DNA of 58,510 nucleotides, filler included, from Streblomastix strix (taxonomy: Eukaryota): the NCBI GenBank assembly GCA_008636045.1. It is 2 parts of 2 records of this genome, joined end to end, with 100 filler letters (N's around TTAATTAATTAA, not from the genome) between each part and the next. Parts side by side here need not be neighbours in the genome. Positions count along the whole stretch, not along the records: positions 29,332 to 58,510 come from SNRW01000106.1; 1 more part is not named here. One strand, written 5' to 3'. Below the pieces are notes generated by a model, which was given only the letters and a program-made list of their open reading frames with translations, ran no database searches and was not told where the DNA came from. Positions 3,455 to 52,100 of the stretch are shown in pieces; position 1 is the stretch's first letter; each line of letters opens with the position of its first letter. The position numbers were made by a program, and so were the translations under genes.

Positions 3455-3507
3455 AAATAGTTTCAATATCCAAAAATAAATTAATTACTGTTCGTACTAT
3501 GGTATTT

Positions 3508-17097: not shown

Positions 17098-17116
17098 GGT
17101 TCGCTTTCTTATTTTT

Positions 17117-27039: not shown

Positions 27040-27078
<39 letters not shown>

Positions 27079-27797
27079 TCGAACTAAGTTTATTTAATTT
27101 AATTCCTTTCTATATTTATATTTTATTCAATTAAATTATTTTTATTAATTTTTTAAAAAATTTGAATTTTTTAATTTGTTTGTAAAGGAGTTTGTATTGC
27201 TTATGAATTAGAGAATTACTTCTATTCAGCTTGTGAAGTTTTGAAGGACTACATTGTTAATGATCTTTGCTGTAAAGTGAATAATGACCGAATAAAACTG
27301 ACAACTACCCAAATTTCACCATTCACATTCTGATATAATAAAAAATAAAATTATTGAAGAGAAAAAAAATTTGATAAATTAATAATAAATTAATAATATA
27401 TTAATAATATATTAATAATTTTAATAAAATATTTATTTAAATAAACATTAAAGAAAAATATAAATAATAATACTTCAGCAATAAGTGTACTAGCATCCGG
27501 TTGTTTCAAAATATCAGGGAAAGGAATTTTAGTTTTAGTCTCAAAGTATTAAGAGTTCAATATATTCACAACTTCATCAATGTTGGAAATTTGATCTTCA
27601 ATAGTCTGTGGATTTCTATGAACTCTTTATATTTCACAACCTCCAAGTATTTCAAGTAATTCACAAAGTACAACTCCGTTTTTAAGATTTTCTGCATTGT
27701 TCACTATTGTGCAATTCAAACTGGGTTCACCATCTAAATAAGGCTGTTTGTTGATCCAACTGATAAGTTCACGTTCACTAGCACGCAATGCACTCAT
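21162..27797 (-). CDS. Large multi-exon protein with four calponin-homology (CH) domains separated by Q/S/N-rich linkers
   Basis: Four W...L-x-[ND/S]G-x-[VL]LC signatures: LISWINK..LKNGVVLCELLE, VLQWLRQ..MRNGAVLCDVVD, LLGWIVS..FRSGVLLCDLAS, LAKWLES..LTDGTVLCRIIE, each followed by an NI..A-type helix. Seven GT-AG introns with consistent phases; ATG 27797, TGA 21162-21164. Confidence 0.85.
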
Positions 27798-29331: not shown

Positions 29332-32300
29332 CATATATTGGAAGTATTTCGAGATTAATTCCTTCATTTTCATTAAACATTTCTTAATAGACATCATAAT
29401 GTTCTTTAATTTATTATATTGATAGATCTGAAAATGGTTTGAGTAGATTAGTCAGAGTCTTAGTATGTTGTTTAACTTATTATTTTATTTATTTCTTTTC
29501 ATTTTAATTTTAATTATCATCCTTATCTTTTAATAAATTGTTATTATTCAATTATTGAGCATCAGTATCCATTTCTTCTTCATTAATTTAGTCATCATTT
29601 TCTTTTTCATTATCTTCATTATTTTTCTTATTTTATTTCTTATTTTGATTTTTTATCTTTTCTTTTATATTTTTATCCTTGTTTATTGCTTTTATACTTT
29701 ATTGTTTATTTGCCTTCTTTTCTTCTTTTTTTCTTTCCAGTTAAGTTTTTCTCAATTATTATAGAGTGTTTAAAAACTTACTATTTTACTCATCAAATCT
29801 TTCACTTATTTTCTTCTTTATTATTCCTTATCCAAATTTATTATCTAATTTTTCATTTATTTTATTTATTATTAATGTTTAAGATGGAATTTAACTTTAT
29901 TATTTAAAAAAAACGGGTTTATGTTGAATTTCGTGCTAATTTTTTCTTGCTTATTAATTTTATTGTTTTGCTGTTAATTCATCTTCAATAGTCTCATTCT
30001 CATTTTATTTATCCATTTACAATTCCTTATCTTAAGATTTATTCATTTGATTTAACTTCTAATCCTTATTCTCCTATTCTTCATCATCACTTTTGTTTAA
30101 TTCAAATTAGAAATCATTAACAATGTCCAATATTTCATTTATTATTGATTCTAATATATCCCACTATTATTAACCCCAATTTTGTTATTGTTATTATTTT
30201 CCTTTTTGTTCTTCTTCTTCTTTATTGAATTGGGAATAAAATTAATCAACATCTTTTTCAATTTATAGAATATCACTTCCATCAGAACTATTTTCATTAT
30301 CAATTTATTTATTATTTAATCTTCTTCTTTTAATTCCACCCAATTCATCATCATCATCATTATTAATTTAATTATCACTATCATATTCATTATCATTATA
30401 TCTCTTTCTCTTATTCTTTTACCCTATTTAGAAATCTGAATCATCATCTTCATCAATTTTCGTCCTTTTCTTTCTTTTTCTTCTTTTTTCTTCTGCATTC
30501 AAATCATTTTCCATTTCTATTTTATTATCCATATAAATATTTTCTTTATTTCTTTTCTCAACTTAATCTTTTTTCTTTTGTATTATTTTTAACATTCTTT
30601 AAGCATTTCTTTATTCAGATTCAACAACACCTTTATGATTTCTAATTAATTAAGCTCTGCTATCTAATTATTATATTTTAAATAAAGATTCTATATATAT
30701 TGATTAATCTTATTATGAATAATGTGCAAATGATTATACTAATGCAAGAGCTAATCTTACAACTCCTCTTATTCCAAATTACGAAGTAACTGTTTATTCA
30801 TGTTTTGATTTAATAATTAAATTATTTGATTAACCGTTAGATTATAATTAAATATTTTTTTAATCAATAATTTTAGATTCTTTTTCTTTTCCTTTCATTT
30901 TTGTTTTCAATTTTTTCCTATCAATCATTCTTTAATTTCTTGCAGACCTTTATTCTTATTATCTTTTTTATTCTCTTTATAAAATACCACAAACTGTATA
31001 TAACGCAGAATATGTAAATAATATTCCCATAAAAGGTTAATCTCTTGAAATTAGTATTGGAAATAATTATGCCCCAGAATTTAATGATGATGAAGAAGAT
31101 ATTGGAGATGAATTGTTGTTTTAATTTATATGAAGAAAATCAGTCAATGAATATGAATTAATCTAATTTTGTTATTTGTCAATATCATCACTAATAATAC
31201 CAGGAAGTTAAATCCATCCTCTTCCATATTAATATTTAAATATTTATTATTTGATTAATGTATCATTAATAGTTTATTTCTAACTTTCTCTATTAATATT
31301 TATATTATCCTTCTTTTGATACAATCTAATAATTCCACTCATTCCCCAACCTTCACATCTGGTTCCTTATCCTTAGTCAAAGCATGAAAGTGATACATCT
31401 GACACTATTAAATTCAAATTTTATTCCTAATAAAATTAAATATATTACATATAATACAGTTGATAACAAATAGATAATTAAACATGTAAATAAAACAAAA
31501 TAAAATGAATAATAAACCTAAGGATCAGAAATTACACACAATACAGAAGAAGCAGCTTCACTAGCTGCTCTTACAATTTATCGTTCATATGCAATTGCAA
31601 GAAGCAGAATATGTATCTATGAATTTGTATTTTGTATATATATATATATATTAAATATAAAATGAAATATAAATATTTATTATTTTCAATTTTTTAACAA
31701 ATATATATATTTAAATTCAAACAACAGAAGGTACACTAAATCTTCTTACAGCATGAGCATAATCACAATGAGAAGAAAATCCAGAATGAATGCATTAAAG
31801 TAGTAATGATAACTTTGATATATATTAAATTCGTTATTATTACCTAATTTTTAAATTTTAATCTTAAAAGTTCTATTTATTACTTATGTCATTTGATTCA
31901 ATTTTATTAGAAGATTATAAATTATTAAATTATTAAATCTATTAAATAGTTTATTCTTATTAAACAATATCTTTATTATTAATATGGTCAATATCATTTT
32001 CCATATCTAACTTCTATACTTCCATATTTTTCTTTTCATTCTCATCATTAATTGATTTATTATATTATTAATTATTTGTATTAATTTATATTTGACTCTT
32101 CTAATCTATGTTCAAAGTATTCTAACCATCAAGTTCAATTCTAACTTCGTCTTTATCATTAAATATATTATCTAAGTCATCTTATATTAATTCTAGTAAT
32201 AAATATTTTTATCTTTATTTATTATTTAATTTCTCTTAATTTATTCTTTTTATTATTTCTTTTCTTTTAATTCCCTTCGGAGTCAACATTCTTTGCTTTA

Positions 32301-35300
32301 ATTTAATTGCTGATCCTTATTATTTCATTTTTCTTCCAGATCTTCCATAAACTCCACCCTTAATCATATTTATACATAATAATATAAAAATTATTAAAAT
32401 AAATAAATAAAATTAAAATTAATTACAATTAATTAAGAATAAATGATATGAATATTTATATTACCTAAGAACTTCCTATAGCTTCTAATCCAAATAAACC
32501 ATCTTCTTCCATTTAATCTAATTCATTTCTTTATTATTAATCATCATCTATATCTTTTTAAGATAATTAATATTTGCTTTGTTATTTATTTGATTTAGTA
32601 ATGTTTTTTATTGGAGTTTATAATAATAAATCTTTATTTTATAATTAAATTTATTATTTTTCTTCAATAATATGTTTTTCTTATTAATTTATGTTATATT
32701 AATTAATGTTTCCTTATTATTTAATAGGAATATTTTCTGATTAATAATCAATTTCTAATTCAATTTAATTGTTTCTTTATTTATCTTCTATATTTATAAT
32801 ATCTTCATCATCATCTTCATCATCATGATTCTATTTCACAAGTTTTCTTCTTTGCTGATTCTGCAATCCATTTGTATTTAAATTAATTTTATTATTATTT
32901 TATTCATTAAAACCGCTTATTGCTGAGTTATAATTATCAATATCAAAGAAATCATCATTATCTTCTCCCATATATTCATTCTAAATATTAGTTGTATCTC
33001 TAATTATATCTTCATTTTCATTATCTAAACTATAATCATCCTCATCTTCATCTTCATCATTTAATGAATCTCCCAATTTTTCTCCTTCAATTGTACCTTC
33101 ACTCATTGATAGCATTGTTATCATCATTAATTTATCATTAATTTCATTTCCTAATTAATTCCTTTATTATTTATTCTTATTTATATTATTCATATTTTCA
33201 TTCATTTAATCGATCTATTCATTGATCCAACTAATTTTATTTCTAATTCCTTAAGTACTTTTAGCCATTTTTGAAACCCAAAAAACTTCTTCTTCTTCTT
33301 CCCATCCTTTTTGTCTCGCTTCCCAACGAAGATCACTCAATCTAATTTATTAACAATTAAATTATTATTAAACTACAATAATTTACAATTATAATACCTA
33401 TATAGTGACAAAGTAAGTGCAGATAATTAGATAATATCTCCTAATGTATCAATTCCCCATTAACCCATTCTAAATTATTTTATTAATAATAATGTTAACT
33501 TATTTACATTAATATACAATAAATAAAAATATATAAAAATAATTATTATTAAATAAAGAAATTTATATTAAAATTTATATAATAGTATATTTATACACTA
33601 ATACTTCCAATAATTCATTGTCTGATAAAAGTGATGCTTCAATTACTCTTCTTACTCCAACAACTAAATGTATCCTTTTCCAAAGAGGTAAATACTAATA
33701 TATATATACAAGAATACAAATAATAAATATCTTATCTGAAATTTATGAAAAAGAATATATATAGTGAAATACGAATAAACCTGCGCTTAAGCAAATAATA
33801 AATCTCCTTCATTTTCTTCCTCATCTATTCCATTATTCTTCTTTAAGTTTTCCTGGTTCTTTTCTTTCTCAAATTCAATTTTCATTGCTAATAACTAATA
33901 ATAATAAATATATATTATATAAAGTGAATATTATATTATAAATGAAGTTAAATACTTCATCATCTGTTAATTCAGTGTCTTCAGTAATAAGAACTGTATT
34001 AACAGCCCAAACTAACTCTACAAGAAGTCGTAAAGCCGATCAAATTTCTACATATCTATAATAATATTAAACATAAAAAATAAATACTAAGATAAAAAAA
34101 AATTTAAAGATTAAATATTTTTATTTAATAATGAATAAAGGACTTTATACTTATCTTTCATTCCAATCCATTCAACAATCCTTTGAATAATTAATCTAAA
34201 TAAATCAATTCTTAGCAATACATTAATAACAGTGGTATCATATCTTGGCATTCTTATATGAAGAAGACAAGGTGCCATTTAAGAAAGAAATTATTGTTAT
34301 TAATATTACTGTTATGACTAAGAAATGAAAGATGAAGAAATATTCTATGATTAAGATTATAAAGCACTAAATGATTTTGTAGATGTATCAATTGATATAA
34401 TTGTTGGTAACTAATATTATTTTGTATTCATATTATTGCTAGTTCTATTATCTTCAGTAAAATATGTTTATTAATCTTAAATAATTTACCTTTTTATTAA
34501 TTTTCTTTTTTAAGGATCAATTGGAATTGGAGTAACGCCGCATGAGAGGATTGGTAAGAATGGTTAACTTCCTTCATTTAATTATATTTCTATTAATTCT
34601 TCCTGTTCTTATTCATATTTTTCTTAGTCTTTTACATCATTTCTTTATTCAGAATGCATCAATTAAACCCACCATTTCATAGACTTATTTTCATATTATT
34701 ATCTTTTTAATGAAAGAATTAAAGCAAATAATCTTATAGTGTATATCCAACTGATCATTGGAATTTCATTTTCTCCATCCATTCCAGACAATCCCCTTAA
34801 TAATCCTCCTAATGAACATGATATTAACTATTCAGATCGTAAAGACAATGTATTACAAGCTGACCATATAATTCCTTTTCCAATTTACGTTACTCTGGAT
34901 AATGCACTTCTACCAGGTAGAAGAATCTAATCAAATCTCCCTCCTTTCGAGCTGTTACTAATATTTGAACCTGCATAAGTAATATCTTATATTGAATATC
35001 CATCATTTATCTAAATTCCTTATCTTTGTTATGTTAATGGATGATTAGACATATTTATATTTAGCGGATCAATTTTATGTAATTTGATTATTTATTAATT
35101 TTATTAATTCAAATTTTATATATTATCATCTTTTAATGTTATTTTTGATCTGGGAGCTCCAATTGTTGATGTAAGTGGTGTAAGTGTTTGAATTGTTCCT
35201 TATTATTAACTTATTTAACTTATTTAATTTTATTATTTAATATTTTGATAAGATTTCTAAAATGCAATAATTGGTCCTGTTCCTGATGATTAAGCTATTG

Positions 35301-37252
35301 ACTTCCTTTCCTGGATATATTATTAATATAATGAAATAGTAAAGCAATGAAATAAAAACAAACCTTCAGTTTAGCAAATAAATTTAAATTATTATTTTGT
35401 AAGTGCGTTTATGAATGAAGCTCTAATAATCGATCTTTAGCACTGGTGTTGTGAGTTAATATTTCATTCTTATTTTATTATGGTTATTGTAAGGATAATT
35501 ATGATGGTAATGAAGAAAAAATAGATTAATGATTTTATTTTTCATTTCTATTAATCAAAGAAGGAGGAAACATTGTATTCAATGAATATTATTATTTCTC
35601 ATTTTCTTTATCTTATTTACTTTTATTCTCCAATTCTAATTGTATTTATTGTTATTTAATTTTCTCTAATCATTATTCTCTTTCTATCTTTCTCCTCATC
35701 TTCCTTATTCTTTCTCCATTATTACCCCCACTTCTGATATAATCAACACATAATCTATCTGGATGTGCATCTCTTATAATAAGCCCATAGCAATCAATGA
35801 CCAACTGTGATATTGATGATGTGTTCAATGTCATTAATGCTGCTGTTGTCATTGCTTATGTTACTGAAGATACTATTGAGTGAAGAGTGTGTTATTATGA
35901 CTAAGAAGATTAAGAATGATTGTTTTCATTTCTATTTATTAAATATTCATTACTTTAATTAGTATTGAAATAATTATTGTTGTTTTTATTATCAATATTA
36001 GTTTAGTTTGCTTTGCTATCATTCATCTATCCATCCTGTTAATCTTCTTCTTCTTCTTCTTCATTCCAACTCATCTCTACATCCACAGCCAATTAATGAA
36101 GACGTGGAGCATGTGGCATTAATATTCTACAATATGGAATAATCTCAACAATTAATGCTAACATATCAAATATTCCAGTTACTTCAAATGTCTTTAGTAA
36201 TTGTTCATGTTTTGGACCACTCATGAATAGTATGTTTCTAATTAATGTTAAAAGTAATTCAATTAATGCTCCATCTTCTTCTTCCATTGAAATTAATGAA
36301 TAAAGCTTATCTATTTATTCTTTTTCATTCTCTCTCTAATCTTCTTCAAGTACCAAAGCATTTTATATCAATTCAGCTTCTTCTTCATTTTCTTCTTCTT
36401 CTTCTTCTTCTTCTTCTTCTTCTTCTTCATTTTCTTCTTCATCAAATTAACTTTATTCTTCACTATTATCCTCTTCATCAGAGAACAAATCATCTGATTC
36501 ATTTTCTTTATTTAAATTGTTTTGTTATTAATTAGTGTTTATTAGATTTGATTTATCATTATTTGCAATATCTATTTTATTTGATTATTAATTTAATTGA
36601 TCATTTTCATTTCCTCCTTTTTCTTCATCTTCATCATTTTCAACTTTAGTTATTTCTTCTTCCCCATTTGGTAGTAAATTCATAAACAATGAGACAATAT
36701 ATAAATAAAGCCTTTCATTAGAAACAAAATCTTCTTCAAAATGATATATAGTGTCTCTAAATCTCAAAGGTCTTCCAACATTCTCTTCAATTTCTAATTC
36801 TTCTGCTCCTTTTATATTATGAGTTAAAAGAGTAAGATCAGTGTTTGTTGGCATTGAAACAAGTGTGAGAATCTTTAGTGCAGATAATTATATAGTATGA
36901 AGCATTTCTATGTTTGCCATAAATCCAGTTTCTTTTTCTTGTTCTTCTTTCAGTATTCTTTCTGAACAAGCAATGAATAGTGGTATAATAACTTTTGAGA
37001 TCACATGGTTACGCGCAAGGCTTTACCATATAAGACGATTTGCTCCTTCACGATTCAGTAATCCAAAAAGTAATCTTACATTCTATTATGACCGTTTCAG
37101 CTCTTGACTGTAATAAAGAAACAAATAAAAAACTTGTGATATTAAATGGTGGGTAATAACCTTTAATTTCCACTCAATTCTCCGCTTTAAATCTTCTTCA
37201 ATGTAACAGCAAGAGTTGATATCGCATATGTAGCAACATCAGTTGAAGGCAT
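29332..37252 (-). CDS. TIMELESS: Timeless/Tof1/Swi1 family replication-fork protection protein, multi-exon, 3' end lost in the gap; two in-frame TGA codons
   Basis: Collinear Timeless-like motifs: ALKILTLVSMP, EEEDGALIELLLTLIRNILFM..KHEQLLKTFEVTGIFDML, LVIDCYGLIIRDAHPDRL, SALRLLVELV, TLGDIIQLSALTLSL, SIYIESLFK, with long acidic/Q-rich insertions. No frameshift found; one splice junction near 33470-33600 is uncertain. TGA at 35670-35672 and 34040-34042. Confidence 0.78.
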
Positions 37253-38029
37253 AAAAATAAATCTACAAAATAAAAAAATGTTACAAAAATTAGTTTGATG
37301 AGAAATTCAGCATTGAACAAATACTCAATGATGTGCATATATGCATTAAATTTGTTCGGAATAAGCAATACATTATAGCATGATGAGATAATTAAAATGG
37401 TAAATAAATTTATTTCTTTAAGATTAAGCTAAAACAACAACTTTTTGTGAAATTTAACTATTTTTTTGAATTTTTGTTATTTCTCTTTTAAATTATATGA
37501 TCAGTTTTTATTAATCTTCAAAAATTCTTTTATATTCATTTATTTCTCCTTACATTTCTTAATTATCTTTCTTTATTTATTATTTTAAATAACCATGGCA
37601 TTTTAGGCAAAAGTGAAGACAGGCCTAAGTATGTTTTCCCAGCCGAAAAGGTCCTTCTGAGTGGGACTTTTTAGCCGAAGGTCACGGCTGAGAGTGTTTA
37701 ATATTTGATGTAAGTTTATCATAGCATAATAAAACTCCTAAAAATATAAAATCATTATGAAAATGACCATAGTATCTGCAATTTGTACTTGAATCATTTT
37801 TTGGATTTTACCACTCTTCCAATGTATATTTTCCTTATACAATTATTTAATATAATATATAAATTATAATTACATAAATTAATCTTATAAAAATAATATT
37901 TATACTTATATACACAAATATTTATAAAAATTTAATAAATCGTAAATATTTATCCATGAGGTTGTTATTTATTCGTTCATACATATATTTTATTTTATTT
38001 AATATCATTTATATCTATTCATTAAATAC

Positions 38030-39660
38030 CAATATATAAATACAACGTCTTACTCAGCGTCTTCGCAATGTTTAAGATGAAAACAGCAGATCTCAGATAT
38101 TGTCTGGTGAACAGTCTTTGTTTGATAAATAGAAGGTTAAGTATGAAGAATTATAAGCAAATTATCATTTAACTGTTGAATAGATGCAGAGAGATGTTGA
38201 AAACTTATAGAGACATCAAGATCAGGAAGTAAGGAACATGCTCTTGATATAAAAGAATTGGAAAAGAAGAATCAGAAAATAATTAAAGATGCGGAGAAGA
38301 AGAAATAATAAGAAACGGATGAATAGATTGAAGAAAATGAAAGATAATGTAAATAACATGAAGAATAGATATTAAAAGAAATGAAAGAATTAGAAAATAG
38401 ATTCAAATAAGTATAGACAATTAAATCTGAGATTAATTAAGAACGCGATAGAAGAGAAAGAGACATTTAGAATGTATTTGCATAGAAGATTGTTTAGATT
38501 AAAGAAATTGAGAAAGTGAATATACAACAGCTCATTCAGAACATTCAGAAAGTATTCAGAACTTATGATAAAGAACTGAGGAATCTGAATAATTAGTAGA
38601 AGAGATGAAGAATAAACTTGATGAAGATACCAAACGTGAACATGAAGCTAGTACTATATATCAACAATCATTATAACATGCAGTTGAGAGAACAAGATCA
38701 GATGCATTATAAGAAACTGTAGAACTGAACAGAAGACTTAATCATAGATAATCTGAATTGGAGCTACAATCAAAAAGAGAAAAAGAAGCATATCGTATTC
38801 GTGAAGATGCTCTTATAAAAGATACTAGCCAAAGAGAACAAGCTTTGAAAGAACAATCCAAAAGACTTAGAAAACAATATGAAGAGAAAGAAATATAGAA
38901 GGATAATGAAAGAAAAAGATGGAAGAGTTAGATCAATTCAGCCAGCGATGAAACAGAAGATGAAAAAAAAGAGGATTAAATAATAGAATAAAAGAGATAT
39001 AGAATAGATAAATGAAGAATCTGAGAGGAGACTATAGGAATTAGACAGGAAATGGTAGAGATAATTAACTGAAATGGTTGATGCATAGAATAAAGAGAGG
39101 GAATAATGGGAATAAGAGATAGATTAAAGGGAAAAAGAAGCTACTCAGAGATTTAATTCCTTTCTTAATGAGACTAAAAGAAGATAGGATAAAGAAGTGA
39201 ATGAATTATAATAAGCTTTAAGTAGTGCAATTGAAGAGGCTAAAAGGAGAGTGGAATAATTAGAAGCTGATATTCGTAGAGTTAAGAAAGAGAAAAAGAA
39301 TGAATTAGAGAAAGCTAAGAAAGATCGAGAATTTGAAAAAGATCATTGAAGATGAGAGATAGAAGTTCTTATAATAAGCACAGAATCGGGAGAATACGTT
39401 TAGATAGGCACTTGAGAATTTAGATCAGAAATATGCATAATTGTAAAGAGATCGTGAATCCATATATTAATTAGAGAAAGAACATGCAATTAAATAAGCA
39501 GATATAGAAAGATATATTCTAGCAGTATAGATTGAACAGAAAGAGGATGATATATCAAAATTAGAGATTAAATTGACTAGATAGATACAATATAATAAAG
39601 ATAGTTCAGAAAGAAGAGGAAGGGAAAATAATACAACAGATCTTGACAACGGAAAGTCTA
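38030..39660 (+). pseudogene. Decayed fragment of an E/K/Q/R-rich coiled-coil protein gene
   Basis: Coiled-coil-like reading must change frame near 38230, 38590, 39000 and 39380; TGAs near 39347-39355; no clear start. Confidence 0.7.
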
Positions 39661-40157
39661 AAGGAATATATTTTTTAAATATTGCCATTTTTTAATAATT
39701 ATTAATACGTATTATTACCTTAAAAGCAATAAATAAAATTAATTAAAAAGTCGATTATTTTTTCATTGGAATCAGATTTCGCTCCGCATGTCCAGTGAAT
39801 TTTTTAGTTTAATGTTTATTAAGTTTAATTAGACTTGAATAAATAATTTTAATTGCTTTAAATTACAACATATTTACATTCCGAGGAGTATTTCAACAAG
39901 CATTTTCTAATCTAAATTTTATTCTAATCGCAGCATTAAGTTATTGTATTACTAGATAATTACATACTTTAAATGATTAATTTTCAAAATTAAATTTTTG
40001 ATAAGTATTACAATTACTTTAGATGCATAAATGACGATTAATATTTTCTTCACAAACTTTATAATTCTGCTCTTAACTATTTTTTTTACAATATCTAACT
40101 ATTTACATTTTATTGATTGTTCATATATACATATTTTTATTTACTAAATATTGATAG

Positions 40158-43100
40158 ATGTTAGGTAATTAGAACAAAAAATAAAGATTAGAAGATCCAA
40201 TTTAGGAGTAAGTAAATATCTTGTGCAGCTCTGTATGAACTTTTATTTTATTGGAACTTCCTTATATTTGATTAACTGCATCGTTAGCTTGATTGTGACT
40301 AATCAGAAATGACACCATGCAAAGCAGTAGCTAATTTTTCTCCAACAAATGTATGTCATTATAAGTAATATTTATATTTTTCTTAATTTTTGAGTATTTT
40401 TGAAGGGAACAACCTATCTGCGAGTGGTAAAAGATGATGTACTAACTATAGACTCTTGGAGGTCAGATGATTATGCTATGTGTATAAACTCATCAGGAGA
40501 AAAAGGTCTCGTTCCCGGTATTTGTTTGCAGTTGGAGGATGCAAATATGAAGCATCCTTTCCTTGATGACGTTTATATGAAAGAAGTTAAACGTATAACC
40601 GTGGATAGCAAGAAATACATGCATTACAATCCTGTTGATAGACATGGAAAAAATTACGATTCAGGTCATTTAAGACATGATATCTAATGTCTGCAAACCA
40701 ATGAAAAGGCTGAAGTCTGTAATCGGAGGCCACATCGTCATTATAAGCCTGCTGAAATTGAATCTGAAAGTAAATAGATGGTAGATGAATTGTAGCATAA
40801 ATGTACATTTAGCAAACCTAAATTCCGTTCTCGGATATATAGTTAAATTATGTCTATTGAATTGTTGTTATTTCTGTTTTTAGAATTTATGTCTAAAGTG
40901 ATTCTATCGTTTACATCTGCTACATCTGACTGTTTCTATTCATTTGTTTATGGAGCTATGACTCTGGCTAGGTAGAACCCCACTGTCCCACTTGAAACTC
41001 TTTTTCCAAGATATTAAAGACAGAAAATTAGTGAGCTTATTAACGACAAAGGATAACAAATTCTTACAAACTTTTTAATGTCTTTAAAGAATTTCTATGT
41101 GTCTATACAAATAGATTCAGCCAAATTAGTTGATTAAAAGCTAACCATAGCAACCATATAGACCCCTTTCCTAAGTAGAAAGTCTATTGTAATCGATTAT
41201 TTTATTGGATCAGTAACATAAGATGCATTGGTAGCATTTGGAGTAAGAGTCTATAAAAGACTAAAATCATTTGGTATTAGAGTAATATCAGTTACTACTG
41301 ATACCTTAAGGCATCAAATTGCATCATTTGACCTGTAATCTGATAATTGTATTTATAAACTTATTAATGAAGGAATCATCCCTTATGGAGCATCTTGCAC
41401 CGCTCACGTTCTAAACTTATGTTATTGTGCAGATATATTAAAGGAAAAGCCTCTGTTCAATTTTAATAACAAAGTGTATGATATATTCAAAAAGTCGATT
41501 GGAAACAAGTGCAATGTAATTGTGAAACGATGGTTAGTAATCTTTGATATATTCATTTATCTACTAAAGAATGACTCAGATAAATTATAGAATATCAGTA
41601 AGTTAATCCTTATTTTTGGTCCTGCACGAGAAGCGAGTTTGCTGTTTGAGAGACTTGGTTCAACATATATTTGCGTATTCCCAATAATAGTTCAATTGAT
41701 TTTATATTATGATTGGTTGATGAAGAAATGGATCAAAGACATTAAGGAAGAATATTACTATGTACTGAGCGTGTTCTCAAATAATGTTTATAAACGTTTT
41801 ATTTATAATGATAAGATGCTGGAGCTATCCCTAATTTCATTTTCGTTAACAGTAAATGGAAGACGATGCTGTGCAATGGGAGAGTTCTTAAATGTTTCAA
41901 TGTTCAAGGAAGAGTTCAAACTGAAATCATTCCCGGATGAGTATCTTAATTCTTAATAAAATGAAGATCCACTTCCCATTATTAATTCAATTTCCAGTCA
42001 AATTTCACCTGATACTTAATAAGAATAGAAAATAAAATAAAGATTAGTTGATGATGGATAAAATATGAAACTAAATGAAGTAGCTGAATTAAATGAAAGT
42101 ATAAATAAAAATGAATAGATTAAAGAAAGTAATAACGAAAACCAAAAAGATTCTGCTGATGATGTATGTGATGACTAAATTGAGTCATAAAATTTAGGAG
42201 AAAGAAGTGAACTGGAACAATCATAGTATTCTGAAAGTTTAAGAGATAGAAAACAGTTGAATAAAAACAAAAAAGATTCTGAATATGTTTATGATTTCTT
42301 CTAAGATGATTATGAAGATAAATTAATAGAAGAATTAGATTAATCGCCAGAAAAGAGAAAATAAAGAAAATTAAATAAAAAATAAGAAAAAGAATAAGAT
42401 GACTACTAAGATTAGTCAGAAGATGAATCAGAAGATAAATCTGAAGAAATGGAAATTGAACAAAAAGAAAGAATTTAAAAGAAAGAAAAACCAAAAAAAC
42501 AAAGAAGTATTGTTCAAGAATAATAAAGAATCAAAGATAAAAACTACGAGCTTAGTTATGATCTACTTAAATAATTAAAATCAATTAATTTTCTCCATAT
42601 TATACTAAATGGATATGAGAAATATTATAATTTAATAAATAAAAATGAATAAACGACATATAACGATGATTCCACTCCCAATCCTTAATCATTAACTAAT
42701 GTATCATCAAAAACTTCAATTGAACAATAATCTTCTTCATCTTATTCATTGCAAACACCAACAAGAATTTTTCCCAATACTATACTTCTAGCTCCATTTT
42801 TTCCCAATTCAACCCTTCAAACATCAGTTACACCTTTATTACTTCCAAATATTCAAAATAATCTTAAATAAGAATCCTCTGTTGCACTTCATCTTTTAAG
42901 ATAACCTAAAATAACTGGACCAAAGTTATTCTTCAATCTTTGGAGAATGGGAGACGAAATTGCATATGACGATATGTTTGACAGCGGATATGATGAAGTG
43001 GAATACTTCAAAGTGCTATCACTTGATCCAGTATATAAAAACATTGGAGTATTTGCGCTTCACATGCTTGGATGTGCATGTACGGAAGCATCATGTGAGA

Positions 43101-43195
43101 GGGTCTTCGCAATACTAAGAAGAATTGTAAATTGTCATAGAAAGAGGCTGCTGATCAAAACAATCATTTCACTTTATATTTTTTTATCAAATTGA
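40158..43195 (+). CDS. hAT-superfamily transposase with N-terminal SH3-like domain, intact
   Basis: Inferred introns 40212-40287 and 40351-40405; then one open frame to TGA 43193-43195. hAT motifs SIQIDS (D), SVTTD (D), SCTAHVLNL (CxxH), KRW, CTEASCERVFAILRRI (E, dimerisation domain). SH3-like CKAVANFSPTNGTTYLRVVKDDVLTI...SGEKGLVPGICLQ. Confidence 0.88.
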
Positions 43196-43273
43196 ATAAT
43201 AAAATCTAAAATATCTTTCAATTTATGATATAAATTCTTTTCTTTTTTATTAACATTTATCTCATCTGTTTAT

Positions 43274-44975
43274 TCAGCTGAGCAACTTCTTGTAGTCCAT
43301 AATAATGTCATTGAAATTTGTCTGAAACACAGCACGAGCTTTTGCAATGAAGTCTTTTGGTATATCATTCGTTATTTGCATTGTGAAAGCATCTCTGATT
43401 TTATCCCTATCTTCAACTTGTACTCCTTCCTCAAGTGTGTGAACGATAGTCAAATAGAACTGGATGAAGAAATAGAGTTTATTTAGGATATATAATAATA
43501 ATATATAATAATAATATAGATCATTTCTAAGGAAGATGAAAGGCAATAATTCGTTTGTTGCTGAATATCGAAGTCTGTCATCACGTGTTTCAAATGTGAA
43601 GAGAATCTACATAAGCTCTTCAAATAAATATGCATACTAAGAAAAGAAAATATTAAGAAATGAAAAAAAAATGGATAATTAATAATAAACTAATAATAAT
43701 TATAATAATCAATACATCAGTCCTTAAGTATTGATAGTTTGCATTCCTTTAATTATCTTTTATTTCTATTATTACTAAGAAATAGAAAATAATCCAGCAT
43801 TTCCAGCTGATGATTATTCTTCAGATTATACCAACGATTGTATTTCAATTACTGAATGATGTTAAAGCTCCCAGTATTTTTTTCAAGAACATCAATCATC
43901 TATGGTGGAGTGATCACTTCCATTGCAACATCAACTACATGATGAAACACACCATGAGCAAATTATATTAATCCTTTACTTAGTTTAGGAAACATCTAAA
44001 GTTAGATATATTAAGAATAATAATACAACAAATAAGAATGTGAGATTAGTAAAATTTATTTCAGTTTTATTTTATCCATTTATTAATTAAATAATATTAT
44101 TTTTATAATTTGTATATATGCAAACCTGAAAGTCTCTATTATTTTTACTTACAAATAAGTGCAATGTAGCAGTAAGAGATGTTTATAATGAATCATCTTT
44201 ATAGAATGAACACTCGCCAAATGGGACATAATCGCCTTTAAATATAATAAGAATAAGAATAAAGATATATATAAGAATAAATATTTAAATATAAATTTAT
44301 TATTATAGTAATACAATTAGTGCATGCAACAAGAGTGTGTTCAATTGGTCTATTAATACGACTAGAACATAAATAAAAGAATTTAATCAATATTAAGAAA
44401 ATGAATGGAAAAGATAAAAATAATCTTTAAAAAAAATATGAATAATCTTCTTTTACTCAACTTTTATTATTTCTAAATATTCATACCTATAATGAGTCTC
44501 AACAATATCTTTCTTCAGTTTTTATTCAACTGATTATTCTGTCTAAGCTCTGGGATATTAAGAGAATGAGAATAAGAAAATGAATGATATATATAATATA
44601 TAAATATATAATGTTTCATATATATTATAATATATGAATATATATTATAGTATACCCATCATCCTTCATCATCTTCCTCTTCTTCTTATTATCTCCCTTC
44701 TCTCTTTCTCTTTATTATTCTTTCTCTCTTTCAATTTGTATTAACCCATAATTCCCTTCAATTAATTCTTATTAATTCTTAGACCTTCATTGCTCTAATG
44801 GTGTAATATATTGCTCTAGGATCCACAACTCCAAATTTGGAGTGTGCAGATGAGAAAGAAGATGATGGAAGTGATGCAGAAGGTGAAATAACTCCTGATC
44901 GAATATTATATACGTTTTCATCAAGAAATTCATCAAATTGTGATGAAATATTTTAAAACTCAATTCTCTTTAAAT
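43274..44975 (-). pseudogene. XPO7: 5'-truncated, frameshifted, intron-retaining fragment of an exportin-7/RanBP16-like gene (C-terminal part)
   Basis: Spliced translation gives DYVPFGECSFYKDDSLQTSL...DFQMFPKLSKGL and RYSATNELLPFIFL...KARAVFQTNF, resembling the exportin-7 YVNFGVFRLYGDD / YPKLS / WSMSRPLL / RDRFTQN region. Frameshifts near 44855 and 43860. Confidence 0.65.
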
Positions 44976-45542
44976 AAGTATAAAAAAATTAATAAAACAG
45001 TTTATTCAAATAAATTTTTAATAATAAATAACAAAATTTAATAAATATAATAAAATTTTACGAAATTGAAAGGAGAAAACAAGAAAATGAATAGAAAATG
45101 AAAAATTTCCATATGTACAGTCTCATCGAATTAATAACTTTAAAATGGGTTTACATATATTTCAACAAACAGATTTATATCTATTAATTAAAGAAATATC
45201 GTACTATTATATTTGAACAAAATTAATGGGAAACTCAAGAAAAAAATTAAAAAATATCTCACGGCTTAGGCACTATTGGAACTTATGGATCATGTAATAT
45301 TTTTTCTTTTATAATATATGTTTTAAAACGTTTATGGCTTTGTTCCGGCTTTTAAAGCCCGGGGATTTGGCTACGGAGAACATACTTAATAATAACTAAT
45401 AATTAACATTTACATTTTTTTAAAATATACAAGTTAACTAACAAATTTAAATAAATTAATTTATCAAATACGTTATTGTTGCTTTCAAATGTTAAGTTAA
45501 TTTTTTTTTTACATTTAATCATTAGAACGAATAAACCTTTCC

Positions 45543-47071
45543 ATGACAACAGTAATTGATAATATGTTTAAAGAGGAGGAGGCAAAATTGTCACTGTCTA
45601 ATAATATAGAAATTGATAAATATATTGAGATATTCCGCTAGTTAGCAAGTCAGGCTACGTCGCTTTAACATAGTAATGTTGAAAAAGCATTACGTTATGC
45701 ATACAGAAGTGTTCAGTATTTTCACTTTCATATAATTATCAATTTAATTATTTTCTTTAATTATTATTTAATATTTATACATGGTTTTAAGCGTTTACTT
45801 ACACATCATAAAACGTCATTATTGTTACAAAACTATTTAGACAAATATTAATAACCAATTGCATGAGGTTTATTTTTAATTATTTTTCTTTATATGTATA
45901 TTTTCTTATATATAGATTGCAAAATAAATGACAGGTTTAGTAGAACAACTTTCTTAGCATTTTAAAGAAATGGAGAATAAAATTGGAACAAATAAAACAA
46001 ATTCAATTTCTCCACCTTCACTATCATCATAAACTTCATCAGTATCTTCACAATCAGCATAAAAATAGTCATCTAATTATTTGCATTCTTCTTCTTCTCC
46101 TCATTCTCCATCTATTCTCCCTATACCTTAATCTCATTCTTCTTCTTCTCCTCATTCTCCATCTATTCTCCCTATACCTTAATCTCATTCTTCTTCTTCT
46201 CCTCATTCTCCATCTATTCTCCCTATACCTTAATCTCATTCTTCTACTTCTCCTCATTCTCCATCTATTCTCCCTATACCTTAATCTCATTCTTCTACTT
46301 CTCCTCATTCTCCATCTATTCTCCCTATACCTTAATCTCATTCTTCTTCTTCTCCATCATTATTTTCAGATTTATAACAAAATATAATACATGAAAAAGA
46401 TAATTAATAAAAAAATTAAGATTAAAACTTAAATATGAAAAGGTCCATATCTCCAATTTAAACTATTTCACCAAGTGCACCTCCAAAGGTATTAATTATT
46501 ATTTTTATTCGATTTTATTTAAAATTAATATATAGTTTGAGTTGATGACACTGGAAGAAGAAAAAGAAGCCGGTTATATCTGTCCAATTACTAAATAGGT
46601 ATTATTATAAATAATGCACACTAATAATACTGTTTTGTATTTATTATTATTAATCAGATAATGAAAGATCCAGTTCATGCACCAAAATATTTTGAAAAAG
46701 AAAGTTTATTTTCAACCTTAATCCTTTTTATTTTTATTAATTCATTCATTATTATATCACAGAGACATAAGAATATATAAACTGTGAAAGAGAGGCTTTT
46801 GTTAATCATGTTTTGTAATTTCAAAATAATCCATTTAGCTCCGATGGATTAGTTGACAATTTGAAATGTGATGAAAGTGATGAATAGATTAGTAATAGAA
46901 TCTTGGAACTTATCGAAAATTTAGGTTCAAACGATGAATTGAAGAATGAAATAGACGGTATTTTTAATTTTATATGACCAATTTTATTATTATAATAATT
47001 AATTTTATAATTTTATAGAATATCTTAATTTATTTCCTTAACGTCGGCCATAAATTAAGGAATCAAAATGA
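45543..47071 (+). CDS. Protein with N-terminal USP8/AMSH-type MIT-like domain, S/P-rich repeats and C-terminal U-box (putative E3 ligase); 7 exons
   Basis: U-box-like YICPITKQIMKDPVHA...CEREAFVNHV...NPF. N-terminus IDKYIEIFRQLASQATSLQHSNVEKALRYAYRSVHVYLHIIKRHYCY. Six GT-AG introns in phase; TGA 47069-47071. Confidence 0.75.
46084..46355 (+). repeat. Coding minisatellite, five copies plus a partial copy of 51 bp (HSSSSPHSPSILPIPQS)
   Basis: Units start at 46084, 46135, 46186, 46237, 46288; two carry TCT>ACT. Confidence 0.95.
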
Positions 47072-47231
47072 GGTTATTTTTCAATTGCATCATAGTTATT
47101 ATTTCAATTGAAATCAATTATTAAAAATAAAAAAAATATATTTTTTATTAAACTAATTTTAATTCTATACTGATTGCATTATATCATATTTAAGTATATA
47201 AACAGATTATAAGACAAAGAATCTTGTTGTT

Positions 47232-48305
47232 TCACTCTTTTGGTGATTTTTTTACTCGCTCGCCAAAAATCAAGCTTCCAATCCGTAAGTAATCAGCTCC
47301 TCTCTTTATCTAAGATATTAAGCAAAAAAAAACCATTTAAAAATAAAATAAATGATTCATACAGCTTCCTAATAAGAGTCTGACATTCCCATACTAAGAT
47401 TTATGTTTTTAGATCTAATTCTCGATCCTGGCATATCTTCAATTAAATCAATTTCAACTTATTTATCATTTTCTTCTTATTAGATTTATTCATCTTTGGA
47501 CTTACAAAACAATACTTTATCACGAGCTTCAACCTCAGGACATGAAAGAAGAATTTCTTTTAATCGAACAAGTTTCTTGATTAAAAAAATTAAATTATTA
47601 TAATCAAAATTTAATAATTAAGTATAGCATACATCAAAACATGAATAATCGCCTGGTTTTTCTACTGTCATTAAACCAATAAATTGTAGATTTCTACATT
47701 CATTTTACAAATACATAATCAGTTCAAGTATTTAACGAATATCAATATTGTCTTAGTTACCATCTTCTTAATTAGTGTTTATTTCTACACCACCAATCTT
47801 ACTCTCTTCTGGACTCGTCCTCACTTCTATTAAAACTTTAATAATTCGACGAGTTCCCTCACTTTCCAAACATTTCTAGATTTTTTCTGCTAACTTAATC
47901 GAATCAATTGTATGTATATACTGCAAATTTGGTACAGATAGTAATTACTTGATCTTATTAGATTAAAGATGTCCGATGAAATGCCAATCTATATCGATTG
48001 GTAACTAAATTATTAGAATAGGTAAAGAGAAAAATGATTTTTAGATATTAATAACATTGAAAATTTACCTCCTTTGACTTCTAGACAAGTTCTTGAACAT
48101 AATTTTCTCCAAAGTTGCGCTGCCCTGCATTGTAAGCAGCTATTATAAGTTCAACTCCTTTTGTTTTGGACACTGCAATAAGTTATGGCTATTAAATGTG
48201 TTTGTACAATTAACTGCAATCAGATATCGATTATAAAACGTCTTGCAAGTTTTATGTTATCATATCCTGAGTAATTGCAATAGTATCTGGTTTTATTGTG
48301 GTCAT
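47232..48305 (-). CDS. PLPBP: Pyridoxal phosphate homeostasis protein (YggS/PROSC/PLPBP family); 4 exons
   Basis: [27 protein letters not shown] (Q encoded by TAA), [20 protein letters not shown]; three GT-AG introns; TGA 47232-47234. Confidence 0.96.
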
Positions 48306-49137
48306 TTAATCAGTTTTATGAGTTATATGTCTGCTAAAATGAAAGTAAATTAAAATAATAAATAAATAATAAATAAATAAAATTTGATAAACGGCAGTAA
48401 AGTAAAGTAAATGAGTAAAAAAAAAATAAAAATAAAAAAATTGGTTAAATCCCTTTATATATGACACTGATTTTATCCAATTTTTATAGCACATTAGATA
48501 GATTTTGTTGAATACACCAACATTAATCAGCGTAATTTTCTTTGGGAGATCTGTATTAGTGGATAAGCGAGAAAAGGAAATTTGTGTATTATTACCTATA
48601 TTTTCATGGCATTATTTTGCTTAATTTTATTGCAATTTGTTCTATATAGCAATAAATTTATTATTAATATAAAATTTGAATAATATATTGATCTGTGGCT
48701 GTCAAAAAATTGTTTTTTGAGCAAAAAATAAATAAAAATACATTTCTTCATAGATAGGTTATATATTGTTAATAGTTCATTAAAAGTATTTTTTATTCAT
48801 AATAATTAATATATATACTAATTAATGCCAAATATGTTTCTAGATCAAAATATAATTTTATTGAGGCAATTGAAGGTTCTTTTTGAGATAATTAATACAG
48901 CACAATATATCAAAATTATTTAAAAAATATGCTTATTACTATTTTAAATTTTTTCTATTATCCAATTTTTTGATTAATAACCCACAGTTGTCATAAAATT
49001 AAAAAGAAGATTTTCTTAAAAATTTTAAAATAAATTTGCACAATATACAATAAATCAAACGATAATTACTACAAACGAATTATTTATATCAATTTCATGA
49101 TACTTTAAATTTATTTCATTAAAATTTTTAGGAATTT

Positions 49138-52100
49138 ATGCAGTAGAAACTGATAGATTAACTTGAACGTCTTTCTATTCGAAATAGGAATCTCTCCCAA
49201 CGAGCGCAACTTCGAGAGAACTTAATAATAAAGTTTTTATTATTTATTTCTATTCTTACAGCTTTGTTTTATGAATTTTAAATATTACGAATATAGATAT
49301 GATGGATTAGGTTAAGAAAGCAATTGGAGAAATGTTAAGAAGTCAAAGAAAGATGAAAATGGGGTATTAGAAGCAGTACTGTTATAAGCAAGGTAATTCT
49401 ATTCTTGATAAGAACAAAACTTTATTAATATTTTATTTAAATTAAACTTCTTTTACAATTTATTAATCTGAATCAGTATGAAATTTTAGAATTCAAATGT
49501 AGCAGTGGATGATCTGAGCGATAGAGCAAAAAATAGAGGCATTTTTACACCTTGATCAGCACCAGTCTTTTCTCGACCACCTGTTAATCGATATCTGAAA
49601 GTCTGTATTATATTTATATTATATTAATTTATCCTTGAAATTTATTATTTAGAAATTGTTTGAAGAATAAAACATTTAAACATACGATTCTATTAAACAA
49701 TCACAGATTAAAGAAGATGAGAAATAAAATACTTTAAATGATGATAATATTTTATTGGAATAACAAATAAAGAATGTATAAAAAGAAATTGAATAGTCAT
49801 CTATAACTTCTATTAAACCAATTGAAAATTTGACAATATCATAAGATACACCAGAATCATAAAAATCTGAATAATAATAATAGTAATAATAATAATCTAA
49901 TTTACAGTAGAAGCAAACTGAACAAGACTAAATATAAATTCCACATAAATTTGCATTGAGATCAACTAGTGCTAATTCAAGGATACTTTCATCATCATTA
50001 AGATCAATTAGAAATAAAGACATATAATAAGAATTATAATAAGAATAATAATAAGAATTATAAGAACATGCTTAATAATATGAATAAGAATATGAATAAG
50101 AATAAGATGATGATGAAGAAGAAAGTGAGAGAGAATATTTAAGATAACAAATACTCCATTAATAACAATTAAAATAAGGACTTGGTTTGGGTAAAGGAGG
50201 TTTATGAGCGAAAGATGGATAATGGATTAGAATGCAACTTGTATTGAAAGGGGAAGTTAAGCATCTTGAATCATCTACAGATGGTTGGTTATAGAAACAT
50301 GTTAGAATGATTAATGAAGTTCGTAGAAAGTATAATGGAGAGGTTGATAGATTGGACAGAATAGAGCAGAAATAAATATTGTTGAAAAAGAATGAAAAGA
50401 AAAAGAAATAAGAAGAATAAAAGAAGTAAGCCGAGTATTAAAGATTACTTGATGTTGTGCGTCGTCGTGAAATGCAGAAGAATTGGGGAGAAGGAATTGC
50501 ATTAAGAGTAAGGAAGACTGATTATACTGCTCCTTCATCAACTATTGGATATTATTAGAATCTATAGAGACCTTATTCTACTAAGGATTATAATGACAAT
50601 AATGACAATATGAGAACAATTGAGCTGTTAAATGATGTTATTGATAAGAAATAGATATAATAAAAATTATTATTAAAAAAAATTAATGAAAAATAGAAAG
50701 AAAAATAGAATAATTTAACTTCCAAAGATTTATAATTAATTATTAATAAAGATAATTTATTATTAGAAAAATCGTAGTAAATAGAAAGTGATAAAGACTA
50801 AGTGACATCAACATTAGATGGAGAGAAAGAAGAAGAGTCAACATTTAATAATGAATAAGAAGATGAATCCAAACAAAAAGAATTAGAAAGAAGGAAAGCA
50901 GAATAAGAATATATTCGTATGGTTCTGGAGATTGAAGATAAAGTGAGATAAACCAGACATTTAGATGACAAGGGGAGAATTATATTGCCAAAACCCCCTT
51001 AAGCAACAATTAAAGCTGATAATTATGCAAAATTACCAAATTAAAAATAGTTTAATAGTTTTTCTTCAACATTAAATGGACTTGATCTAGCAAATTATTA
51101 AAATTAGCAATACAATAATTAGTATTTTAAAATTGAAAAATCTAATTCGGATAATAAAGAAAATAATGATAATAATTAATAAATAAAAAGAAGCATATTA
51201 ATTAACCATATCTAAAAACTTGATTAAATTAAGAATAGAATAAAGCAAAATCCAATTGTTATTCCATATTCTTCATAATTAAAGTAGTAAGATAATAAAT
51301 AATAAGAAGGGGATGTAAAACAGAAAGAACAATAAATTATTTAAAAAGGTCAACGATAATTGAGTCAATCGTTTTCTTAAGCTAATTCTAATATTAAATC
51401 AATATATTTATAAACACCATAATCATCTCCAATTTAGTCATCTAGAAAATCATATGAAAATTAATAAGAAAGTAGTATTGAATAAAATGAAAAAGATGTA
51501 AATAAACAATAATACAAAGAGAATGAATAATAATATAAATAATTATCATTATTTGCACAATAATTACCTAATGGAGGTATAATAGTTACAAATAAGACGA
51601 TTAATGAAATAATAAGTACTCCAAGGAATACATTACTTGATTTGAAGAAATAGGAGAAATAATTATAAGATAAATAACCAGGTAAATTTATTGAAGATGG
51701 AAAAGAAGAAAAGAAAGAAGAAGGATAATAATCTCTTATATATCCATCTCAGTCATTGTATTCAATTAATTCAACATAAACATCTCCTTTATCTTCGCAT
51801 ACATCCAGATCTCCTCCATTGATATCAAATAGATTAAATCAATCTCCAATATCAAGTTAGAGATAAAGAATAAGACCTTAAACAACGTAATCATCTTCGT
51901 CTTAATTGTCCAAATAGAGTTAGATATCAAATTTAATATCTTAAAAACAATAATTATTCTTTAAATAAATACATTCACATACAGTATTTGAGAGATATTG
52001 GTATACTATTAATGGAATTATGGAAAAGAAGAAATTAATTGACAAAGATCTAATTGGAAGCGAAAGTGAAAGAGAAAGTGAAAGAGAAAAAGAAGATAAA

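What the first reader, a model, noticed from the sequence alone, without database searches (positions are those of the whole stretch)
34040..50207. Candidate dual-meaning UGA: isolated in-frame TGA codons in two intact host genes of a genome where TAA/TAG already encode Gln
Seen: TGA ends every completed gene here, yet two genes of about 8 kb with no detected frameshift each contain exactly two internal TGAs. In the Timeless homolog they are 35670-35672 (KIEREQ*LEKIKQQ) and 34040-34042 (KYVEI*SALRLLVEL). In the long gene they are 49553-49555 (GIFTP*SAPVF) and 50205-50207 (GKGGL*AKDGQW). All four read naturally as Trp and lie kilobases from the 3' end. TGG is still the majority Trp codon (about 18 and about 12 by hand count). 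The real pseudogenes in this window show frameshifts; these two homopolymer-rich genes do not. Established: UAA/UAG=Gln with position-dependent UGA=Trp/stop is known in ciliates such as Parduczia and Condylostoma, and Blastocrithidia reassigns all three stops. I know of no such report for oxymonads. Inference: an incipient code with no dedicated stop codon, or restorative A-to-I editing of UGA to UGG.
Basis: partly seen in the sequence, partly recalled or inferred. Interest (0 to 1): 0.93.

Follow-up and report, generated by a model that had tools for sequence, protein, structure and literature searches.

The report
Four internal stops in oxymonad genes
Two long genes of a termite-gut protist that already reads TAA and TAG as glutamine each carry two internal TGA stop codons; these are most likely ordinary disabling mutations, but possible reading as tryptophan is nearly as likely, remains untested, and would be a genetic code not reported for this group.

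Summary
The four TGAs are at the stated coordinates, in frame, in two genes with no frameshift over about 4,800 codons. The two in the Timeless-like gene also stand in a separately assembled contig of depth 23. A database record that shares sequence with the window names Streblomastix strix (TAA/TAG=Gln).

That they encode Trp was not shown: no homolog spanning any of the four sites was found, and no RNA run was listed. In this code TGA is the only possible nonsense codon. A decayed retroelement in the same window has 5 in-frame TGAs and no frameshift, one opposite a conserved Leu, so the 'no frameshift' argument is weak. TGA would be only 4 of 76 Trp-equivalent codons, all in two genes, whereas A-ending synonyms take 69-86%.

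For translation: no frameshift, mildly Trp-like contexts (likelihood ratio 1-7), all four in the 5' half, a hint of purifying selection, no divergent intact copy seen, and a ciliate precedent.

My odds: nonsense or decay 0.47, translated UGA 0.37, splicing 0.07, editing 0.03, artefact 0.03. The scan's notes hold no earlier report of this. A genome-wide codon-to-profile count would settle it.

The parts
29333..37252 (-). Timeless-like gene: 11 exons, at least 2,362 codons, runs into an N gap; 18 TGG, 2 internal TGA, no frameshift
   Evidence: Pfam PF04821 below cutoff
35670..35672 (-). Internal TGA, codon 510, inside exon 2 in a predicted charged helix
   Evidence: low-confidence single-sequence model
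34040..34042 (-). Internal TGA, codon 1004, 13 nt into exon 4; the only site that is cheap to splice out, and only through a GAG acceptor
49138..57013 (+). Long gene of no known family, about 2,440 codons, introns 49233-49296, 49393-49476, 49601-49652; start uncertain (48825 is the model's alternative); 14 TGG, 2 internal TGA; true stop 57011-57013
   Evidence: no Pfam hit; 40-aa homolog fragment P0011, 70% identical
49553..49555 (+). Internal TGA, codon 90
50205..50207 (+). Internal TGA, codon 290; the public annotation (P0012) begins at the ATG 24 nt downstream
9844..12087 (-). Control: decayed DIRS-like reverse transcriptase frame with 5 internal TGA, 21 TGG and no frameshift; TGA 11398-11400 lies opposite the Leu before the motif-A Asp
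38040..39670 (+). Control: coiled-coil gene relic with 4 frameshifts and 0-1 TGA
21162..27797 (-). Control: intact calponin-homology gene, 1,910 codons, 14 TGG, no internal TGA
47232..48305 (-). Control: intact YggS-like PLP-binding gene (name recalled; only weak Ala_racemase_N hits), 300 codons, 1 TGG, no internal TGA

Best explanation
The four TGAs are real in-frame codons in two otherwise unbroken genes, and they most likely act as ordinary premature stops left by point mutation in gene copies under relaxed selection. Shown: the codons, the open frames around them, and that substitution-only decay occurs in this genome. Inferred: because TAA and TAG mean Gln, every nonsense mutation must be a TGA; one change from TAA, TTA, TCA, AGA, GGA, TGG or CGA is enough. 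About 1% drift in this segment (a decaying haplotype or duplicate, or dispensable genes) would give four such stops. Translation would end at the first TGA and the message would likely be a target of nonsense-mediated decay; the long gene could also restart at the ATG 24 nt after its second TGA.
For: A DIRS-like frame in the same window has 5 internal TGAs in 748 codons and no frameshift, plus 3 in the overlapping frame. One lies opposite Leu in 4 of 4 PDB alignments shown (two HIV-2 chains, Ty3, a protease-RT chain), so non-Trp TGAs without frameshift are ordinary here. All four TGAs fall in two genes: 4 of 36 Trp-equivalent sites there, 0 of 40 in nine other open frames totalling 6,816 codons (p about 0.046). 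In six A/G codon pairs the A-ending codon takes 0.69-0.86, while internal TGA is 4 against 55 TGG in host genes. About 37 substitutions per nonsense change means about 1% drift suffices. A frameshifted relic lies between the two genes. A cDNA study of 17 Streblomastix genes screened for in-frame stops names only TAA/TAG, and found UPF1 (PMC1501061). A 2026 oxymonad transcriptome paper has 0 mentions of UGA/TGA and used the Hexamita code (PMC13002328).
Against: No frameshift in about 4,800 codons with 21 A/T runs of 6 or more, whereas the AT-rich relic next door has 4 frameshifts and 0-1 TGA; chance of four lesions all being TGA is about 0.06-0.17 on the window's ratios. Three of four TGAs sit in non-polar windows that hold only about 30% of the mutational opportunity; likelihood ratio for Trp-like context 1.0-7.1 across six settings. 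All four lie in the 5' half. A related strain (X2, depth 2-3.5) differs at 5 synonymous and 6 non-synonymous listed coding sites, dN/dS about 0.3, p 0.057. No long divergent second copy of the Timeless-like gene is listed in X1 at 80% likeness (table cut, near-identical alleles would be collapsed).
Confidence: 0.47

Rival explanations
1. UGA is translated at internal positions, most likely as Trp, and terminates only near the 3' end: an early or low-usage form of the karyorelict/Parduczia code. A near-cognate tRNA-Trp would outcompete a weak eRF1 far from poly(A), and the codon would be tolerated mainly in weakly expressed genes. A leaky stop with partial read-through is the mild end of the same reading.
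For: Open frames of 199-1,674 codons follow each internal TGA, against 1-100 after seven terminal TGAs. No frameshift. Context likelihood ratio up to 7. All four in the 5' half. dN/dS about 0.3 against X2. Precedent on the same background: UAA/UAG=Gln with UGA=Trp or stop in karyorelicts, in-frame UGA in 10.5-76.9% of transcripts (10.1101/2022.04.12.488043); low UGA sense usage in Condylostoma (PMC4967479); reassigned codons avoided in highly expressed genes in Blastocrithidia (PMC12153298).
Against: No homolog residue at any site. 0 internal TGA against 40 TGG in nine other frames. TGA share far below the AT-biased synonym share. Non-Trp TGAs without frameshift exist in the window. No report found in four searches on oxymonads or metamonads.
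Confidence: 0.37
2. The TGAs are removed by splicing (cryptic introns or alternative splice sites), so the mRNAs are intact under the ordinary code.
For: In-frame GT-AG intervals cover each site: 35725-35666 (60 nt), 50200-50250 (51 nt), 34143-34016 (128 nt), 49505-49559 (55 nt). Splicing out 34040 costs only about 3 nats in the model.
Against: Three candidates have G 0.25-0.30 and T 0.17-0.29, against G at most 0.11 and T at least 0.44 in 22 of 22 modelled introns. Model costs are about 20, 13 and 21 nats. The 34040 route needs a GAG acceptor, and 21 cDNA-verified Streblomastix introns always have a pyrimidine before AG (PMC1501061). All four sites would need it.
Confidence: 0.07
3. Restorative A-to-I editing converts UGA to UGG in the mRNA.
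For: Compatible with intact frames; nothing specific was found.
Against: No data here. From my own knowledge: such mRNA editing is described in animals and some fungi, mostly for UAG, and an A preceded by G is a poor target; I know of none in metamonads.
Confidence: 0.03
4. Assembly or amplification errors turned sense codons into TGA.
For: The S. strix assembly is described as a fragmentary single-cell assembly (PMC10703272); the window has gap-side duplications; X1 may be the source sample, so early amplification errors would be shared.
Against: A separately assembled X1 contig of depth 23.3 has 0 other letters over 33065-36371. Four errors to TGA would need an error rate near 1%, which would also break the CH and viral-type frames (0 internal TGA in 6,816 codons).
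Confidence: 0.03
5. The TGAs encode selenocysteine.
For: Selenocysteine synthesis is reported for oxymonads (PMC10703272).
Against: Neither protein hits a selenoprotein family. The 320 nt after the long gene's stop fold no better than shuffles (z -0.35), a crude test only. The Timeless-like 3' end is in a gap.
Confidence: 0.03

Closest known systems
Streblomastix strix / Hexamita-type nuclear code (NCBI table 6: UAA, UAG = Gln; UGA = stop)
   Same: All open frames of the window need TAA/TAG=Gln and end at TGA; four table-6 translations of window frames are in NCBI nr as annotated proteins; the named cluster members are S. strix.
   Different: Two host genes carry internal TGAs; under this code they are broken genes.
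Karyorelict/Parduczia ambiguous code (UAA, UAG = Gln; UGA = Trp or stop; table 27, number recalled)
   Same: Same Gln background and TGA as the only terminal stop; internal TGAs lie far from the 3' end.
   Different: There UGA was aligned to Trp in conserved domains and occurs in 10.5-76.9% of transcripts, marker genes included. Here Trp identity is untested and TGA is confined to 2 of 11 modelled intact-looking frames.
Condylostoma magnum and Blastocrithidia codes (all three stops reassigned)
   Same: UGA=Trp; low UGA usage in Condylostoma; avoidance in highly expressed genes in Blastocrithidia.
   Different: [quoted passage not shown] Neither could be examined here: no tRNA gene in the window, no genome.
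Ordinary young pseudogenes or nonsense alleles
   Same: A few point lesions in long, otherwise normal frames; the window's DIRS-like element shows the same TGA-only decay.
   Different: No frameshift in A-rich genes, no intact second copy seen, and dN/dS below 1 against a related strain.

Membership tests
Karyorelict/Parduczia ambiguous code | UAA and UAG encode Gln | tested here: met
   782 TAA/TAG codons in the host gene models; table-6 translations match annotated proteins; PMC1501061
Karyorelict/Parduczia ambiguous code | UGA is the terminal stop | tested here: met
   7 of 7 gene ends examined are TGA followed by a short or AT-rich non-coding run; partly circular under table 6
Karyorelict/Parduczia ambiguous code | Internal UGA aligns to conserved Trp in homologs | tested here: inconclusive
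   No homolog spans any of the 4 sites; context likelihood ratio 1.0-7.1
Karyorelict/Parduczia ambiguous code | In-frame UGA spread over many genes, conserved ones included | tested here: inconclusive
   4 of 36 Trp-equivalent sites in two genes, 0 of 40 in nine other frames; one window is too small a sample
Karyorelict/Parduczia ambiguous code | Short 3' UTRs and depletion of sense UGA before the true stop | not testable with these tools
   No RNA holder listed; the four TGAs do lie in the 5' half
Karyorelict/Parduczia ambiguous code | Translation through UGA (footprints or peptides); tRNA-Trp and eRF1 features | not testable with these tools
   No tRNA gene in the window; no genome
Young pseudogene / nonsense allele | Disabling point mutations | tested here: met
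   2 TGAs per gene, if TGA is read as in table 6
Young pseudogene / nonsense allele | Frameshifts or broken splice sites | tested here: not met
   None in the 4 large exons tested; 13 of 13 modelled introns are GT-AG; not obligatory at about 1% drift
Young pseudogene / nonsense allele | Relaxed selection (dN/dS near 1) | tested here: inconclusive
   5 synonymous, 6 non-synonymous of 11 listed coding differences to X2; about 0.3; p 0.057; shallow contigs
Young pseudogene / nonsense allele | Intact second copy or allele | tested here: inconclusive
Timeless/Tof1 family | TIMELESS domain PF04821 at the curated cutoff | tested here: inconclusive
   18.1 bits against cutoff 25, E 0.0017; no hit with the longer exon; no PDB relative; fold model pLDDT 41.5
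Selenoprotein genes | Selenoprotein family and SECIS element | tested here: inconclusive
   No family hit; no stable fold after the long gene; no SECIS model was run

The most novel reading that the evidence does not exclude
Streblomastix strix translates internal UGA as Trp at low frequency while still stopping at UGA near gene ends: a code with no dedicated stop codon in a metamonad, caught early, when only about 5% of Trp codons have switched and only in some genes.
Probability: 0.35. Interest if true: 0.82.

Novelty: already known. Interest (0 to 1): 0.48.

Why it matters
If the stops are nonsense mutations, this is an ordinary sign of gene decay in a fragmentary protist genome and a warning that TGA-only lesions carry no information in a table-6 genome. 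If UGA is translated, it would add a metamonad to the few lineages with ambiguous stop/sense codes (ciliates, Blastocrithidia, Amoebophrya). It would be an early stage of such a code, and many S. strix genes would be wrongly split in public annotation, as the long gene would be here (P0012 starts after the TGA). That would be a new member of a known kind, and it is testable in a day from public data.

Tried and rejected
No whole genome was held. No RNA holder was listed among 4 runs; this is no evidence on expression. X2, X3 and X4 have no listed piece covering either Timeless TGA.

Homolog searches: the search for homologous proteins blank in 3 of 3. The 1.84-billion library gave 2 hits, a self-like fragment and a 40-aa fragment that starts 76 residues downstream of the TGA. 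Both metagenome scans gave nothing. Four viral scans and two genome scans gave nothing relevant; L001 is a chance match with no tblastx hit to the window. PDB searches with Timeless exons gave no relative. The single-sequence fold had pLDDT 41.5, so no fold search was run. No language-model look-alike search was obtained. Exact look-ups found 4 of 20 window frames in the collection.

Rejected: assembly error at the Timeless sites; cryptic introns at three sites; alternative 5' models of the long gene that avoid TGA, which need a 2-nt exon plus an atypical intron. Context after the TGAs (TTA, TCG, TCA, GCG) shows no shared read-through motif. The second and third DIRS TGAs align to variable columns (Trp in Ty3 only for the second), so only the first counts as non-Trp. 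The S. strix genome paper was not held; no supplements were read, and those of PMC13002328 and PMC10703272 could bear on codon usage. Five look-ups in the scan's notes found no earlier report of this pattern.
Full report
VERDICT. The four TGA codons are real features of the sequence, but their meaning is unresolved. I rate ordinary nonsense mutation (0.47) slightly above translated UGA (0.37). These odds are my judgement from the tests below, not a computed result.

WHAT THE WINDOW IS. It is 28% GC eukaryotic DNA whose long frames open only with TAA/TAG=Gln. Three of 10 table-6 translations were found letter for letter in NCBI nr, and one more of a second set of 10. Named cluster members are Streblomastix strix proteins (KAA6403396.1; KAA6403388.1). 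Runs that hold the stretch are labelled termite gut metagenome. PMC10703272 (passages seen) describes the S. strix assembly as fragmentary and single-cell: 152 Mb, N50 5.18 kb, 26.6% GC. No genome was available to me.

THE OBSERVATION. All four triplets are at the stated places. The Timeless-like gene runs from 37252 to the N gap at 29331: 10 GT-AG introns, 2,362 codons, TGA at codons 510 and 1004, 18 TGG. A Viterbi model trained on other genes recovered 5 of 5 hand-placed introns in the part tested. The long gene runs from about 49138 to 57013, with TGA at codons 90 and 290 and 14 TGG; a gap with a 127-nt overlap interrupts it at 55231-55330. A frameshift-aware scan found none in the four large exons tested. 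After each internal TGA the frame stays open for 199-1,674 codons; after seven terminal TGAs it closes within 1-100. The Timeless name is weak: PF04821 at 18.1 bits against a cutoff of 25, no hit on the longer exon, no PDB relative. The long gene has no family hit.

ARE THE BASES RIGHT? For the Timeless-like gene, one X1 contig of 6,826 nt at depth 23.3 spans 33065-36371 with 0 other letters. X1 may be the source sample and contigs drop minor alleles, so this excludes an assembler slip but not an early amplification error or a hidden allele. Four errors to TGA would need about 1% error, which the other frames do not show. A related strain in another study (X2) gives only short pieces at depth 2-3.5, none across a TGA.

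COULD SPLICING REMOVE THEM? In-frame GT-AG intervals exist at each site. Three are purine-rich (G 0.25-0.30, T 0.17-0.29), unlike 22 of 22 modelled introns (G at most 0.11, T at least 0.44), and cost about 13-21 nats in the model. The 34040 site costs only about 3 nats but needs a GAG acceptor; in 21 cDNA-verified Streblomastix introns the base before AG was always a pyrimidine (PMC1501061, section 6 read). Two of my own 22 modelled introns end in AAG, so that rule may not be absolute.

DO THEY STAND FOR TRP? Not shown. No homolog covering any site was found. The one true relative, P0011 (40 aa, 70% identical, from a 1,162-nt JGI contig), begins 76 residues downstream of 50205. It shows the long gene is conserved in another organism, nothing more. 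As an indirect test I compared the residues around each TGA with those around the window's TGG codons and around codons one step from TGA. The likelihood ratio for Trp was 1.0-7.1 over six settings (p 0.005-0.48); three of four sites are in non-polar windows that hold about 30% of the mutational opportunity. This test is post hoc and slightly inflated by neighbouring Trp windows. TGG supplies only 2.7% (flat rates) to 13% (assumed AT-biased rates) of the single-step routes to TGA, so Trp at all four sites in orthologs would be decisive.

Under table 6, TGA is the only possible nonsense codon, so 'all internal stops are TGA' carries no information. The DIRS-like element at 9844-12087 has 5 internal TGAs in one 748-codon frame and no frameshift, and 3 more in the overlapping frame. 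The first lies opposite Leu in 4 of 4 reverse-transcriptase alignments shown; the next two fall in variable columns. The coiled-coil relic at 38040-39670 shows the opposite pattern, 4 frameshifts and 0-1 TGA. On these ratios, four lesions all being TGA has a chance of about 0.06-0.17: low, not negligible. About 37 substitutions yield one nonsense change, so about 1% drift explains four. The TGAs cluster: 4 of 36 Trp-equivalent sites in the two genes, 0 of 40 in nine other frames of 6,816 codons (p 0.046). A freely synonymous TGA should take 69-86% of Trp codons, as A-ending codons do in six other pairs; it takes 4 of 59 in host genes. A fully established Trp codon is therefore excluded; a low-usage or leaky one is not.

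WHAT STILL FAVOURS TRANSLATION. There is no frameshift despite 21 A/T runs of six or more. All four TGAs lie in the 5' half. No long divergent copy of the Timeless-like gene is listed in X1. Of 24 other letters in four X2 pieces, 11 are listed coding differences: 5 synonymous and 6 non-synonymous, dN/dS about 0.3, p 0.057; the rest are near contig ends or non-coding and were dropped. Precedent exists on the same Gln background: karyorelicts use UGA as Trp or stop (10.1101/2022.04.12.488043, passages); UGA sense usage is low in Condylostoma (PMC4967479, passages); Blastocrithidia avoids reassigned codons in highly expressed genes (PMC12153298, passages), which could explain clustering.

MECHANISM. 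Best reading (inferred): point mutation under relaxed selection; translation ends at the first TGA; nonsense-mediated decay is plausible, since UPF1 is present (PMC1501061, passages). The public annotation starts the long gene at the ATG 24 nt after 50205, which only reflects the table used. Rival (inferred): near-cognate tRNA-Trp outcompetes eRF1 far from poly(A), as proposed for ciliates. The window holds no tRNA gene, so neither tRNA nor eRF1 could be examined.

LITERATURE. Searches on oxymonad + UGA + tryptophan, Streblomastix + stop codon, Streblomastix + eRF1 and metamonad + anticodon stem (0 papers) listed no report of UGA as sense in oxymonads; I saw listings and abstract starts for most. 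PMC13002328 (passages and outline) discusses only TAR=Gln and has 0 mentions of UGA or TGA. PMC10089648 (passages and section 7), PMC11631190 and PMC8629427 (passages) cite Streblomastix only in references; the last warns that eukaryotic pseudogenes mislead codon inference. The genome paper was not held, and Keeling and Leander 2003 was not read. No supplements were read.

NOVELTY AND SCORE. On the best reading this is already known biology. On the rival it would be a new member of a known kind in a new eukaryotic supergroup, at an unusually early stage: probability 0.35, interest 0.82 if true. Overall interest 0.48: a real, open lead that a genome-wide count could settle quickly.

Noticed in passing
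window 598-8738: Polinton-like cluster in the host code (names by recalled motifs, no Pfam hit): a B-type polymerase-like region in two frames whose stop and start overlap at 5766-5769, an integrase-like frame at 2072-3454, and a frame at 598-1338; 14 TGG and no internal TGA in 2,453 codons.
   Followed up: partly
window 9413-17115: DIRS-like retroelement with overlapping frames (reverse transcriptase; integrase SAM-like Pfam hit, E 0.003), decayed by substitutions only. A segment is repeated 1,451 nt apart at 11573 and 13024 (100% identical over the 300 nt shown): tandem copy or assembly artefact.
   Followed up: partly
window 38040-39670: Coiled-coil gene relic with four single frameshifts at roughly 350-400 nt spacing and almost no stop codons; the regular spacing was not explained.
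   Followed up: partly
window 40394-43195: 934-codon frame joining an SH3-like N-terminus (PF14604, E 0.0002) to a hAT transposase-like C-terminus (PF05699, E 0.005); both below cutoff.
   Followed up: no
window 55104-55457: 127-nt exact overlap on both sides of a 100-N gap inside the long gene: a scaffolding artefact; the frame is probably continuous.
   Followed up: yes
window 17576-20600: Cysteine-rich membrane protein with internal repeats at 288- and 429-nt spacing, no Pfam hit.
   Followed up: no
window 46026-46406: Six copies of a 51-nt tandem repeat within a region (43200-46800) that looks like a decayed gene.
   Followed up: no
window 22000-24500: One exon of the CH gene has about 41% GC while the rest of the same gene has 22-27%.
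   Followed up: no
window 37508-37668 and 35709-35750: Short stretches with summed contig depth above 1,100 in X1: multi-copy repeats near the 5' end of, and inside, the Timeless-like gene.
   Followed up: no
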